64,000 bases of DNA. Source: a virus. Made by a program: the position numbers and the translations under genes. Under the pieces are notes generated by a model, which did no database searches, was not told where the DNA came from, and saw nothing but the letters and a program-made list of their open reading frames with translations. Location: IMG/VR virus record IMGVR_UViG_3300035492_000037; one strand, given 5' to 3'. Numbering within the stretch: position 1 is the first letter of the stretch; every line of letters begins with the position of its first letter. This document shows positions 39,482-42,839 of the stretch, piece after piece.

Positions 39482-39951
39482 TCATCGGAATCGACCCTGG
39501 CTGCACTGGCGCCATCGTAGTGATGACCGAGAGCCGCAACTACGTGGCTCACCTCAACATGCCGACCATCAAGGTAGGCACGAAGAGTCGCGTGAACGGC
39601 GCCGCCGTCGCTGCCTTCCTGCGCGAGACGGTCGGGGAGTTCACCGCTCATGCCTATCTGGAGCAGGTCGGCGCCATGCCTGGCCAGGGCGTTTCCTCGA
39701 TGTTCACCTTTGGCCATGCCGCTGGCGTGGTCGAGGGCATCCTTCAAGGAGCGTGCATCCCGTACACATTGGTCACCCCGCAATCATGGAAGAAAAGAGC
39801 GGGCCTCATTGGGGCCGACAAGGATGCTGCACGCTCCCGCGCAATCCAGCTCTACCCGGACCTCCGCATTCTCGACCTGAAAGGGAAGGGGCAAGCGGTG
39901 GCCGACGCCATTTTGATCGCCCGGTTTGGGGCTAAAGGGGAGGCAGCCTGA
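39478..39951 (+). CDS. RuvC-like Holliday junction resolvase
   Basis: IIGIDPG, AYLEQV, FTFG, VTPQSWKK, ADAILIA. Confidence 0.88.
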   Translation: MIIGIDPGCTGAIVVMTESRNYVAHLNMPTIKVGTKSRVNGAAVAAFLRETVGEFTAHAYLEQVGAMPGQGVSSMFTFGHAAGVVEGILQGACIPYTLVTPQSWKKRAGLIGADKDAARSRAIQLYPDLRILDLKGKGQAVADAILIARFGAKGEAA

Positions 39952-41087
39952 TGGCCGCACGCAAAGCGACAGACGACGAAATCAAGGCTGCGCTGACTGG
40001 CCGCACTGTGGCAGAGGCTGCGCAGATCCTCGGGCTGCACGAGCGCAATGTCTACACCCACAAGGCGCGCCTGGCTCGCCAAGGGTGGAGCCCGGAGCAC
40101 GGGCTGAACACGGAGTACCCTGACGGCTTCAAGATGGGCAAGGTTACCATCCAGCGGAACGGGCAGGGCGAGATCGTCAACACGTGGGAGCGGATGTGCG
40201 AGGACTCCGAGCGGCAGATGCAGATGATGCAGAGTGCCATCGAGACGCTGTGCAATCGCGTCCCTGCGGTAGCAAGGAGGAAGGCGGTTGGCAGCTTCGA
40301 CGAAAAGCTGTGCGTTGGATATCCAATCGGAGATCCGCATTTCGGCGAATACATCTGGGGCGCCGAAGCTGGCGGCGATTGGGATCTGACCATAGCGCGC
40401 CAAACCCACATCGACGCCATGGCTGCCCTGGTAGAGGGCGACCCGAGGGCTGAGCGCGGGCTGATCGTCAACCTTGGCGATGTCCTGCACTACGACTCAC
40501 TGATGCCGAAGACGCCGCGCTCAGGCCACATCCTGAACTCGGATGGCCGTTTCTCCAAGATGGTTGACGTGCTGATCGACACGATGGTGACAATGATCGA
40601 GATGGGGCTTGATCGGCACAAGACACTGCACGTCATCAATGTCCAAGGCAACCACGACGAGACGGGCTCTCAGTGGCTGTCCCGTGTGCTGGCTGCTCGG
40701 TTTATCAACGAGCCACGCATCACTTTCGACTTAACGCCAAGCGTCTTCAACTACTACCGCTTCGGCAAAGTTCTGGTTGGCAGTCATCACGGACATTCAG
40801 CCAAGCCGGCAGCGCTCCCAGGAGTGATGGCTGCAGATAGACCTATTGACTGGGGCGAGACCATCCACCGCTACTGGTGGACCGGTCACATTCACCACGA
40901 ATCCAAGAAGGAGTTCCCAGGCGTATCGGTTGAGTCGTTCAACACGGTAGCGCCGGCTGATCCTTATGCCTACAACGCCGGTTACCGCTCGCGCCAGACA
41001 ATGAAGTCAATCGTCCTGCACTGCGAGAACGGAGAGGTATCGAGGCAAACGGTTCATCCGGACATGGTGAAAGGGGTGGCAGCATGA
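39951..41087 (+). CDS. HTH plus calcineurin-like metallophosphoesterase
   Basis: N-terminal TVAEAAQILGLHERNV HTH; GDPH, LGDVLH, GNHD, HHGH, GHIH metal-binding motifs. Confidence 0.8.
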   Translation: MAARKATDDEIKAALTGRTVAEAAQILGLHERNVYTHKARLARQGWSPEHGLNTEYPDGFKMGKVTIQRNGQGEIVNTWERMCEDSERQMQMMQSAIETLCNRVPAVARRKAVGSFDEKLCVGYPIGDPHFGEYIWGAEAGGDWDLTIARQTHIDAMAALVEGDPRAERGLIVNLGDVLHYDSLMPKTPRSGHILNSDGRFSKMVDVLIDTMVTMIEMGLDRHKTLHVINVQGNHDETGSQWLSRVLAARFINEPRITFDLTPSVFNYYRFGKVLVGSHHGHSAKPAALPGVMAADRPIDWGETIHRYWWTGHIHHESKKEFPGVSVESFNTVAPADPYAYNAGYRSRQTMKSIVLHCENGEVSRQTVHPDMVKGVAA

Positions 41088-41649: not shown

Positions 41650-41678
41650 TTGACTAGGAACAGTGTTCCTCCTATAGT
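41650..41678 (+). promoter_or_regulatory. acr operon sigma70 promoter with an Aca1-type operator in the spacer
   Basis: TTGACT (41650-41655), 17 bp, TATAGT (41673-41678); palindrome AGGAAC-AGT-GTTCCT at 41656-41670. Confidence 0.85.
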
Positions 41679-41724
41679 GAAGCCATGCCAGTCAGCCGGC
41701 GCGGCGAAACCAAGGAGAGACACC

Positions 41725-41946
41725 ATGTACGCAGGATACCAAGCAGCAAAAGTCGAGTTTGAAGGCCGCACTGTAGTCGTTGATATGGTGACGATTGGTG
41801 GGCTAGTAGGCGACTGGAAGGCGCGCAGCGAGGAAGACAAGTATTGGATTGGAGACCTGATCGGCTTTAATCGCGCCCTCAGCATGGCAATCGACAGCGA
41901 AGACGGCATTGCTGAATACAAGTCCGTTCGCGTAACTATGCAATAA
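41725..41946 (+). CDS. Candidate anti-CRISPR protein A (73 aa)
   Basis: AGGAG RBS; first gene of the aca1 operon; net acidic. Confidence 0.7.
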   Translation: MYAGYQAAKVEFEGRTVVVDMVTIGGLVGDWKARSEEDKYWIGDLIGFNRALSMAIDSEDGIAEYKSVRVTMQ

Positions 41947-41973
41947 ACAGCATACGATAAAAGGAATTTACAA

Positions 41974-42267
41974 ATGAGCCTCACTCATATCTACAGCGGG
42001 AACGCCTACGAGCATGACAATGTTGACAGTCGCGCCGACCTATCGAAAGCCGCGTCGCGAACGGCTGTTGCTGAGCGAGTGCTGCGCGCAAAGCGGCCGT
42101 TCAGCATGGATGAGCGGCGCTGGAATGAACTGAGCGAGTGGGCGAATCAGCAGATCAATGGCTGCGACTCGCTGCCGCCTATGGCTGTCACTGCCATTGT
42201 TGCGTGCCGGTGGCCTGGCGAGCCCGTGCAAAACAATGGCGTTAGGTCTGAAAGCAACGCCAAATGA
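41974..42267 (+). CDS. Candidate anti-CRISPR protein B (97 aa)
   Basis: AAGGA RBS; ATGA overlap with aca1. Confidence 0.65.
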   Translation: MSLTHIYSGNAYEHDNVDSRADLSKAASRTAVAERVLRAKRPFSMDERRWNELSEWANQQINGCDSLPPMAVTAIVACRWPGEPVQNNGVRSESNAK

Positions 42268-42485
42268 AGCCTGACGCCAGCGCCCGTAACCCCGCCCCGG
42301 ATTATCTCCGGGGTCTCATCGAACAGGCAGGCATATCGCAGCGCGAGGCAGCAGAGCTAATCGGCATCGAGCCTCGCCTGCTGCGGTACTACCTGACGGA
42401 CCCGGCGAGCGGGAAACAGTTTCGAGTGGCGCCGTACCCGGTCCAGTTTGCCCTGGAATGTCTCGCGCCATGCAAAGAGGGTTGA
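42264..42485 (+). CDS. aca1: Anti-CRISPR-associated HTH repressor Aca1
   Basis: PDAS..NP.P.YLRGL…AGISQR.AAELIG…R..RYYL…R.APY.VQFALECLA matches the Aca1 sequence as I recall it almost throughout. Confidence 0.92.
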   Translation: MKPDASARNPAPDYLRGLIEQAGISQREAAELIGIEPRLLRYYLTDPASGKQFRVAPYPVQFALECLAPCKEG

Positions 42486-42511
42486 CAGGAGTGCTCTAAT
42501 GAGCCTAAAGT
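42482..42511 (+). promoter_or_regulatory. Putative late promoter pR'
   Basis: TTGACA at 42482-42487 and TAAAGT at 42506-42511 (18 bp spacer), followed by a terminator. Confidence 0.5.
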
Positions 42512-42559
42512 AAGCCATCCTGTCGATCTTGCGCGTTAAGGAATGACATACAGCACATG

Positions 42560-42599
42560 AAGCCCCGGCACAGAGCAATCTGGTCGGGGCTTTTTTATT
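42560..42599 (+). terminator. tR'-like terminator
   Basis: AGCCCCG…CGGGGCT stem followed by TTTTTT. Confidence 0.7.
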
Positions 42600-42839
42600 C
42601 CCATCGAATTCGATGTGTTTGCGCGAACGGCTGATTAGGGCTCGACCACCCGGCGCCCAATTCAATACATCCGCCATGCCTCTGATCATTTTCCTGGCGT
42701 CACGCAAATGATCATGCACAAATCGCGCGGATTTTCATTCGCCTCACGGCAACCCTCTTCCGGCCCCATGCCTGCCTCCTTGCCCCGAGCGGATCGCACG
42801 CGCATGTGAGGCCGGACCAAACACCAACGAGACTCCACT

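What the first reader, a model, noticed from the sequence alone, without database searches (positions are those of the whole stretch)
41974..42267. Candidate Acr B: 97-aa protein coupled to aca1
Seen: own AAGGA RBS, stop overlapping the aca1 ATG, helical core (SRTAVAERVLR…WNELSEWANQQI). Inference: a second inhibitor, possibly of a different subtype or a non-CRISPR defence, as acr loci often stack unrelated inhibitors.
Basis: partly seen in the sequence, partly recalled or inferred. Interest (0 to 1): 0.75.

Follow-up and report, generated by a model that had tools for sequence, protein, structure and literature searches.

The report
Untested anti-defence candidate beside Aca1
A real 97-residue prophage gene of a very rare, unrecognised family sits in a small operon controlled by the anti-CRISPR regulator Aca1, and its relatives elsewhere sit in front of Aca1, Aca10 and other small repressors, which makes it a well-supported but untested candidate for a new inhibitor of bacterial immunity.

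Summary
ORF 41974-42267 (+) has an AAGGA ribosome site 8 nt upstream, an ATGA stop/start overlap with the next gene, and a helical core. That next gene is a true Aca1 (E 4e-21 to solved Aca1). The operon promoter carries an Aca1-type palindrome in its spacer.

The protein ("B") matches no Pfam, PHROG, NCBIfam or PDB sequence and no known fold. Billions of proteins yielded only 12 distinct family members, which evolve under purifying selection.

Homologues lie directly upstream of:
- Aca1 (a second phage);
- an Aca10 homologue (E 5.5e-20 to PDB 7XI5);
- two other small HTH families.

In one locus B is fused to a DNA-binding-like tail. Five loci show the same build: a strong promoter with a palindrome in its spacer (four perfect and of spacer length, one only 8 bp), small cargo genes, then a small regulator. 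The neighbour gene A occurs with and without B, so cargo is shuffled as in known acr loci.

No activity, target or host CRISPR type could be established, and no known acr gene shares an operon with B. My reading is a binding-type immune inhibitor: about 0.4 anti-CRISPR and 0.25 against another defence. The scan had already noted this operon on this same DNA.

The parts
41650..41678 (+). Sigma-70-type promoter of the operon, TTGACT-17-TATAGT
   Evidence: Consensus scan gives 10 of 12 matches; 2 sites found in the region against 0.4 expected.
41656..41670 (.). Perfect palindrome AGGAAC-AGT-GTTCCT filling the promoter spacer: putative Aca1 operator
   Evidence: It is the only exact copy in the 64-kb window. 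It shares 12 of 15 bases with the JBD30 Aca1 site IR2, AGGCACAATGTGCCT, and two of the three differences are symmetric (half-site GGAAC versus GGCAC; PMC8633003).
41725..41946 (+). Gene A, 73 aa, acidic (pI 4.6), first cargo gene
   Evidence: ORF list. No Pfam, PHROG or PDB match. Homologues lie with B in L002 and L026/27, and without B in L028, L031 and L045.
41961..41965 (+). AAGGA ribosome-binding site of B
   Evidence: Read directly from the sequence; 8 nt before the ATG.
41974..42267 (+). Gene B, 97 aa, the finding: candidate anti-defence protein of an unrecognised family
   Evidence: family of 12 members; purifying selection; structure model; no family match; no fold match.
42264..42485 (+). 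aca1, 73 aa HTH repressor; its start overlaps the B stop (ATGA)
   Evidence: E 4e-21 to solved Aca1 (7c0g, 7fa3). phrog_3865 at E 2.8e-28. The DNA-contact residues R44, R47, Y48 and R59 of JBD30 Aca1 (PMC8633003) are conserved in the alignment.

Best explanation
B is a mobile cargo gene of an Aca-controlled early operon. Most likely it is an anti-CRISPR protein that works by binding, not by catalysis.

Proposed course of events:
- When the phage genome enters a cell, the strong promoter at 41650-41678 fires and produces A, B and Aca1 from one transcript.
- B binds a component of the host's type I CRISPR-Cas machinery (the surveillance complex or Cas3) and blocks it.
- Aca1 accumulates, binds the palindrome in the promoter spacer and turns the operon down.

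Shown here: the gene is real and conserved; the regulator is Aca1; the promoter-operator-cargo-regulator build recurs around B homologues with at least four different regulator types.

Inferred: that B is an inhibitor, that it acts by stoichiometric binding, and that its target is CRISPR-Cas. I put anti-CRISPR at about 0.4, and any anti-defence role (this reading plus the first rival) at about 0.65.
For: 1. Aca1 identity and operator (PMC8633003).
2. B homologues lie directly upstream of Aca1 in another phage, next to its terminase genes (L001).
3. In L010 B is the only cargo in a minimal operon: TTGCAA-N16-TAAAAT with palindrome GCACGGA-C-TCCGTGC, then B, then an overlapping Aca10 homologue (E 5.5e-20 to 7XI5).
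4. The same build with different palindromes and regulators occurs in L006, L026 and L002.
5. In L002 B is fused to a tail that is homologous (E 5e-7) to the C-terminus of the gene downstream of B in L013. This resembles the Acr-regulator fusions AcrIIA1, AcrIIA13, AcrIIA15 and AcrIF24, which PMC9410881 describes as Acrs with Aca activity.
6. Cargo is shuffled: A-B-Aca1, X-B-Aca1 and A-Y-Aca1 all occur.
7. In 76 IMG/VR Aca1 loci, 28 protein families lie directly upstream of aca1. Of the 10 sampled, 3 are the Pfam families AcrF1, AcrF3 and AcrF31, so this slot does hold true Acrs.
8. All contexts are mobile elements: prophages, integrase-bearing islands and an ICE-like island with SSB, MvaT and CbtA.
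9. B is small and shows no known fold. The only invariant residues are R29, W56, P68 and P69, so no conserved acid, histidine or cysteine set suggests an enzyme.
10. GC content dips over A and B.
11. Background rate: 7 of 27 aca-associated candidates tested in P. aeruginosa were Acrs (PMC7913775).
Against: - No activity data exist.
- No operon that holds B also holds a known acr gene; A, X, Y and the 133-aa neighbour are all unrecognised.
- B is near neutral (pI 5.4-9.4 across homologues), whereas many Acrs are acidic.
- The host genome is not held, so no CRISPR-Cas type or self-targeting spacer can be cited.
- Aca-regulated operons also carry non-CRISPR anti-defence and other genes (PMC13551039).
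- Most aca-adjacent candidates tested so far were inactive against the systems assayed (20 of 27).
- B recurs with Aca1-like/Aca10-like HTHs and with a 92/133-aa neighbour across 40-50% identity. That could mean a functional module rather than free cargo.
Confidence: 0.4

Rival explanations
1. B inhibits a defence other than CRISPR-Cas, such as restriction-modification, a signalling or abortive-infection system. It is expressed from the same Aca1-timed early operon.
For: Aca1-12 are predicted to regulate many non-acr anti-defence genes, and fewer than half of the genes under Aca1/Aca2 control have an assigned function (PMC13551039). B homologues occur with regulators typical of both Pseudomonas and Betaproteobacteria-type elements, and in an ICE-like island with SSB. 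This fits a broadly conserved target. B resembles no known Acr.
Against: Nothing points to any particular defence system. The two validated regulator families beside B (Aca1, Aca10) were both defined through anti-CRISPR genes.
Confidence: 0.25
2. B is not an immune inhibitor. It is a functional partner of the small repressor, or another accessory function of mobile elements such as a co-regulator, anti-repressor, superinfection exclusion or host takeover.
For: B is paired with a small DNA-binding protein in most loci, often with overlapping stop and start. It is once fused to a DNA-binding-like tail. Aca1 and the L006/L010 HTHs show weak mutual similarity (E 0.001-0.002), so part of the pairing may be inherited together. 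A 92/133-aa gene recurs between B and the HTH in L006, L012 and L026.
Against: B occurs with at least four unrelated regulator types: Aca1, Aca10-like XRE, a MarR-like winged helix, and a 68-73-aa HTH. A specific protein-protein partnership with all of them is unlikely. In L003, L004 and L011 no regulator is adjacent. B has no recognisable DNA-binding domain.
Confidence: 0.2
3. B is the toxin of a toxin-antitoxin-like pair, and the downstream HTH is its antitoxin (HigBA/MqsRA order).
For: The gene order is a small protein followed by an overlapping XRE-type HTH. The L006 and L010 HTHs show weak similarity to HigA-2 and MqsA.
Against: The partner in the window is a validated Acr regulator, and the one in L010 is a close homologue of another. 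The window operon has a further cargo gene. B is fused to the DNA-binding-like tail in L002, which is odd for a toxin. B has no RelE/ParE/MqsR-like fold match. B stands without an HTH in L003, L004 and L011.
Confidence: 0.05

Closest known systems
acrIF1-aca1 operon of Pseudomonas phage JBD30, and other aca1 operons of Pseudomonas phages
   Same: Both have a strong promoter with an Aca1 palindrome (AGGAACAGTGTTCCT here, AGGCACAATGTGCCT in JBD30), one or more small unrelated cargo genes, and aca1 last. Cargo is shuffled between phages. IMG/VR relatives of this Aca1 carry AcrF1, AcrF3 and AcrF31 in the same slot.
   Different: B and A match no known Acr family. Only one operator copy is seen. 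The 5' UTR shows no significant hairpin (z +1.3), although an Aca1-bound RNA motif is reported for most aca1 operons (PMC13551039). The operon sits in a lambdoid-type prophage, upstream of a second promoter, lysis and terminase genes, rather than in the Mu-like JBD30 type of genome (the phage-type comparison is my own knowledge).
acrIC7-acrIC6-aca10 operon of Pseudomonas citronellolis
   Same: In L010 a B homologue precedes an Aca10 homologue (E 5.5e-20 to 7XI5). The promoter is TTGCAA-N16-TAAAAT with a palindrome, much like the published TTGCAA-N16-TATTCT.
   Different: The palindrome sequence differs from the Aca10 site ATACGCTCATTGAGCGTAT (no match within 3 mismatches). B could not be compared with AcrIC6 or AcrIC7 because no sequences are held here.
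Acr proteins fused to their own regulator domain (AcrIIA1, AcrIIA13, AcrIIA15, AcrIF24) and the RHH regulator Aca14
   Same: In L002 the B domain carries a C-terminal tail with a strand-helix-helix pattern. The tail is homologous to the C-terminus of the gene that follows B in L013. This matches the idea of cargo and regulator merged in one chain (PMC9410881; PMC13551039).
   Different: The tail matches no Pfam or PDB RHH by sequence, so its RHH nature is inferred. The window's B has no such tail.

Membership tests
Anti-CRISPR (Acr) protein | Inhibits a CRISPR-Cas system in an interference assay | not testable with these tools
   Needs plaque or transformation assays. No activity data were found in any searched paper.
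Anti-CRISPR (Acr) protein | Encoded in an operon with a validated aca gene on a mobile element | tested here: met
   Aca1 at E 4e-21. The setting is a prophage with terminase, portal and lysis genes. Homologues lie with Aca1 (L001) and with an Aca10 homologue (L010).
Anti-CRISPR (Acr) protein | Aca operator (inverted repeat) within the operon promoter | tested here: met
   The palindrome at 41656-41670 sits inside the TTGACT-17-TATAGT spacer and shares 12 of 15 bases with JBD30 IR2. Binding by this Aca1 has not been measured.
Anti-CRISPR (Acr) protein | Sequence or fold relationship to a named Acr family | tested here: inconclusive
   There is no hit in Pfam (which recognised AcrF1, AcrF3 and AcrF31 in control loci), PHROGs, NCBIfam, PDB sequences at E up to 10, or GenBank phages. 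The fold searches gave nothing clear. Acrs without a structure or model (for example AcrIC3, IC6, IC7, several IE and IF families) could not be compared.
Anti-CRISPR (Acr) protein | Host carries the targeted CRISPR-Cas system, or a self-targeting spacer against the element | not testable with these tools
   No whole genome is held for this window or for L011.
Aca-type transcriptional regulator | HTH or RHH DNA-binding domain | tested here: inconclusive
   No DNA-binding family hit for B at E up to 1, and no HTH-like fold match above Z 4.3. Only the L002 homologue has an added DNA-binding-like tail.
Type II toxin (HigB/MqsR/RelE-like) with downstream HTH antitoxin | Recognisable toxin fold or family | tested here: inconclusive
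   No Pfam, NCBIfam or PADLOC-independent hit, and no fold match. The PADLOC library was not searched.
Type II toxin (HigB/MqsR/RelE-like) with downstream HTH antitoxin | Self-contained two-gene module, always with its antitoxin | tested here: not met
   The window operon has three genes. In L003, L004 and L011 B lacks an adjacent HTH, and L002 has B fused to the DNA-binding-like tail.

The most novel reading that the evidence does not exclude
B founds a new family of immune inhibitors. It is spread thinly across prophages and integrative elements of Pseudomonas-type and Betaproteobacteria-type hosts. It uses its conserved, apparently unstructured ends (Y-S-G-N-A-Y-E-x-D-N-V-D-S-R-A-D at the N-terminus, R-W-P-G-E...N-G-x-R at the C-terminus) to bind a conserved defence component by a mode not seen before. 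In some elements it has merged with its own repressor domain. The target may be a non-CRISPR system.
Probability: 0.25. Interest if true: 0.65.

Novelty: new member of a known kind. Interest (0 to 1): 0.45.

Why it matters
If B is active, it adds a new, structurally unrecognised inhibitor family to the anti-CRISPR/anti-defence repertoire. Such proteins serve as off-switches for CRISPR tools and as probes of how immune complexes work.

The family is unusually well marked for an untested candidate. It lies beside two experimentally validated Aca families, in a single-cargo operon in one locus, and as a cargo-regulator fusion in another. The case also shows that rare cargo families, missing from reference phage and species-representative genome sets, can still be placed by metagenomic context.

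Tried and rejected
- Family and structure look-ups for B found nothing: Pfam, PHROGs and NCBIfam at E up to 1; a PDB sequence profile at E up to 10; Foldseek against PDB and BFVD (best E 2.6-3.8); and an all-against-representatives structural search (best Z 4.3, generic helical hairpins).
- tblastn of B against GenBank phages and of two members against PLSDB plasmids gave no match.
- Pattern scans of GTDB species genomes and IMG/VR found no B relative. The metagenome scan found one (L004).
- The first AlphaFold2 run, with 4 sequences, was poor (pLDDT 60) and was replaced by the 11-sequence run.
- Complex prediction of A with B returned 'no answer' (score 0.10 against a mark of 0.32). It says nothing either way.
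- The 5' UTR (41684-41740) folds no better than shuffles, so I could not confirm the published Aca1 RNA hairpin.
- The Aca10 operator sequence is absent from L010.
- The B profile against ORFs of 12 Aca10-like genome loci and 76 Aca1 IMG/VR loci gave only sub-significant hits (E 0.04 or worse).
- The upstream ORFs in L014 and L024 share a W-A...G-x-D-L-P-P-like stretch with B, but I do not count them as members.
- The L002 tail could not be confirmed as RHH by Pfam or PDB.
- Peptide-motif searches of the paper library and of the supplements of PMC7913775 found no mention of this family. PMC13551039 and PMC12248084 have no supplements held as text, so those could not be searched.
- I considered B plus Aca1 for the single complex job. 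I dropped it because B pairs with several unrelated regulators.

Full report
**Observation**

The ORF is exactly as described. It runs from ATG 41974 to TGA 42265-42267 and encodes 97 aa. AAGGA lies at 41961-41965, 8 nt before the start, and the stop overlaps the next ATG (42264) as ATGA. The reading frame is under purifying selection. In 15 pairwise comparisons among six homologues, pN is 0.15-0.47 against pS 0.61-0.81. AlphaFold2 with 11 family sequences gives pLDDT 76, with residues 21-85 near 90. It places helices at 26-38, 47-61 and 70-74, matching the quoted "helical core". Residues 1-10 and 90-97 have pLDDT below 50, and confidence is also low (block means 59 and 67) over 11-20 and 81-90.

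**The operon**

- Upstream lies a sigma-70-type promoter, TTGACT-17-TATAGT (41650-41678).
- Its spacer holds the perfect palindrome AGGAACAGTGTTCCT, which is unique in the window.
- Gene A follows (41725-41946; 73 aa; pI 4.6), then B, then a 73-aa HTH protein.
- The HTH protein matches solved Aca1 (7c0g, 7fa3) at E 4e-21 and phrog_3865 at E 2.8e-28.
- The published JBD30 Aca1 site IR2 is AGGCACAATGTGCCT, with half-site GGCAC (PMC8633003). The window's palindrome shares 12 of 15 positions, and two of the three differences are symmetric. The Aca1 residues shown to contact DNA (R44, R47, Y48, R59) are conserved in the alignment.
- GC falls to 0.50-0.54 over A and the start of B, against 0.60-0.64 around them.
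- The operon lies after a 181-aa phage protein (phrog_3412). It lies before a second promoter with a terminator-like hairpin, a holin-like gene, and the terminase and portal genes. It is therefore an insert in a prophage. The host is probably Pseudomonas, because the lysis region is 90% identical to Pseudomonas phage PS-1.

**What B resembles**

Nothing known.
- No Pfam, PHROG or NCBIfam family at E up to 1.
- No PDB chain by sequence profile at E up to 10.
- No tblastn hit in 50,697 GenBank phage records or 72,556 plasmids.
- No clear fold match: Foldseek against PDB and BFVD gave best E above 2, and the wide structural search gave best Z 4.3 on generic helical hairpins.
- As a control, Pfam did recognise AcrF1, AcrF3 and AcrF31 in other Aca1 loci.

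The family is very small. A word-indexed search of 5.8 billion clusters, a full HMMER pass over 1.84 billion representatives, one metagenome scan, and one further member found next to an A homologue give 12 distinct members in the family alignment. None of them comes from the GTDB species genomes or IMG/VR.

Invariant residues are R29, W56, P68 and P69. G9, S24, A33, V36, P42, A57, P81 and N88 are nearly invariant. There is no conserved acid, histidine or cysteine set of the kind an enzyme would show. The N-terminal motif YSGNAYExDNVDSRADLS and the C-terminal RWPGE...NGxR are conserved, yet modelled with low confidence. That pattern fits segments that order on binding a partner; this is inference.

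| Locus | Arrangement |
|---|---|
| L001 (phage, just upstream of terminase) | a different 60-aa gene X, B, then Aca1 with overlapping stop and start |
| L010 (next to an integrase) | TTGCAA-N16-TAAAAT with palindrome GCACGGA-C-TCCGTGC, B as sole cargo, then an overlapping HTH that matches PDB 7XI5 at E 5.5e-20 |
| L006-L009 (integrase-bearing element) | TTGCAA...CATAAT with TGCCAC-N7-GTGGCA, B, a 92-aa gene, then an XRE HTH related to the L010 one |
| L026/L027 (prophage end) | TTGCAT-N17-TATATT with TAAAGCTC-AA-GAGCTTTA, A, B, a 133-aa gene, then a 73-aa HTH |
| L012 | B, the same 133-aa family, then a 68-aa HTH |
| L002 | promoter, A, B fused to a 45-aa tail, then a MarR-like winged-helix protein |
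| L013 | B, then an overlapping 130-aa protein |
| L003, L004 | B followed by varying small ORFs; the L004 copy has an in-frame TGA |
| L011 (NCBI assembly) | a C-terminally shorter B in an island with SSB, MvaT, PapB, CbtA and MqsA-like genes |

- 7XI5 is the Aca10 structure (PMC9410881). The L010 promoter echoes the published TTGCAA-N16-TATTCT, though the operator sequence differs.
- The L002 tail has a strand-helix-helix pattern and is homologous to the C-terminus of the L013 downstream protein (E 5e-7).

So B sits in front of two experimentally validated Aca families and at least two further regulator types. In four loci (window, L010, L006, L026) a perfect palindrome fills most of a strong promoter's spacer. 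In L002 the spacer holds only a shorter palindrome of 8 bp (ATAATTAT).

**Cargo shuffling**

A has few homologues. It occurs with B in the window, L002 and L026/27. It occurs without B, as A-Y(112 aa)-Aca1, in L028, L031 and L045. B occurs without A in L001, L010 and others.

In 76 IMG/VR loci that encode relatives of this Aca1, 28 different protein families lie directly upstream of aca1. Of the 10 sampled, 3 are the Pfam families AcrF1, AcrF3 and AcrF31. None is B. This is the combinatorial pattern of known acr loci.

**Interpretation**

The best-supported reading is that B is a payload of Aca-timed early operons, that is, an immune inhibitor acting by binding. I put anti-CRISPR at 0.4. The reasons are that both validated neighbour families were defined by acr genes, and that 7 of 27 aca-adjacent candidates were Acrs in the one systematic test I could read (PMC7913775). 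[quoted passage not shown]

A non-inhibitor role, as a partner of the regulator or some other accessory function, gets 0.2. It is favoured by the recurrent pairing with small DNA-binding proteins, the fusion, the weak kinship between Aca1 and the L006/L010 HTHs, and the recurring 92/133-aa neighbour. It is disfavoured by the diversity of regulator types and by loci with no regulator. A toxin role gets 0.05.

**Weaknesses**

- There is no activity and no known target.
- No host genome is held.
- No known acr gene shares an operon with B.
- B is near neutral in charge.
- The 5' UTR shows no significant hairpin where an Aca1-bound RNA motif is reported for most aca1 operons.

**Comparison with known systems and novelty**

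In function and layout this is an acr-aca1 operon of the JBD30 kind, and in L010 an acr-aca10 operon of the P. citronellolis kind. The L002 form parallels self-regulating Acr fusions and the RHH regulator Aca14.

Membership as an Acr cannot be granted, because the defining assay is untested. What is new is the protein family, not the kind of system. It is a rare, unrecognised candidate with unusually consistent context. I rate it as a new member of a known kind, with interest 0.45.

Earlier notes of this scan on the same window had already flagged the operon, the operator and gene A. I re-derived the operator and the Aca1 identity independently, and I added the family-wide context.

Noticed in passing
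window 42482-42600: A second sigma-70-like promoter, TTGACA-18-TAAAGT, starts 4 nt before the aca1 stop codon ends (42482 against 42485). It has an inverted repeat (42484-42495 / 42513-42524) and then a GC-rich hairpin with a T-run near 42549-42597. It looks like a lambdoid late promoter plus terminator unit, so the acr-type operon would be an insert just upstream of it.
   Followed up: partly
window 42670-42732 (+): Sub-threshold match to the Rfam abiF RNA motif (29.5 bits against a gathering score of 37, E 0.007), in the gap before the holin-like gene.
   Followed up: no
L004 6001-6279: This metagenomic copy of B has an in-frame TGA where the others have the Gly9 codon. It is either a pseudogene or an assembly error.
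   Followed up: partly
L013 424-816; L006 6660-6914 and 7325-7561; L010 2207-2467; L014-L025: An N-terminal motif MPNHPNR(S/G) is shared by Aca10-like HTH proteins and by a 130-aa non-HTH protein in L013. The middle of that protein matches a separate 78-aa gene in L006, and its C-terminus matches the tail fused to B in L002. These small regulators appear to be built from swapped modules.
   Followed up: partly
L014, L017, L018, L021, L024 (about 2220-2510 in each): In Betaproteobacteria-type genomes each Aca10-like HTH is preceded by a different small ORF (65-96 aa) whose end overlaps the HTH start by 8 nt. These are further untested cargo candidates.
   Followed up: no
L028 245-583; L031 2135-2473; L045 2163-2504: A 112/113-aa protein family lies between gene A and Aca1 in three loci. 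It has no Pfam or PHROG match, and the L028 member has no PDB sequence match either. It is another unrecognised cargo family.
   Followed up: partly
L012 1657-2261; L026 4731-5350: A 133-aa protein (weak hit to phrog_37751) and a 68-73-aa HTH follow B in two unrelated contigs. The HTH may be a further Aca-like family. It could not be compared with Aca4.
   Followed up: no
window 39951-41087: A 378-aa protein with an N-terminal HTH matches phrog_704 'DNA repair exonuclease' at E 6.5e-108. It lies two genes upstream of the operon.
   Followed up: no
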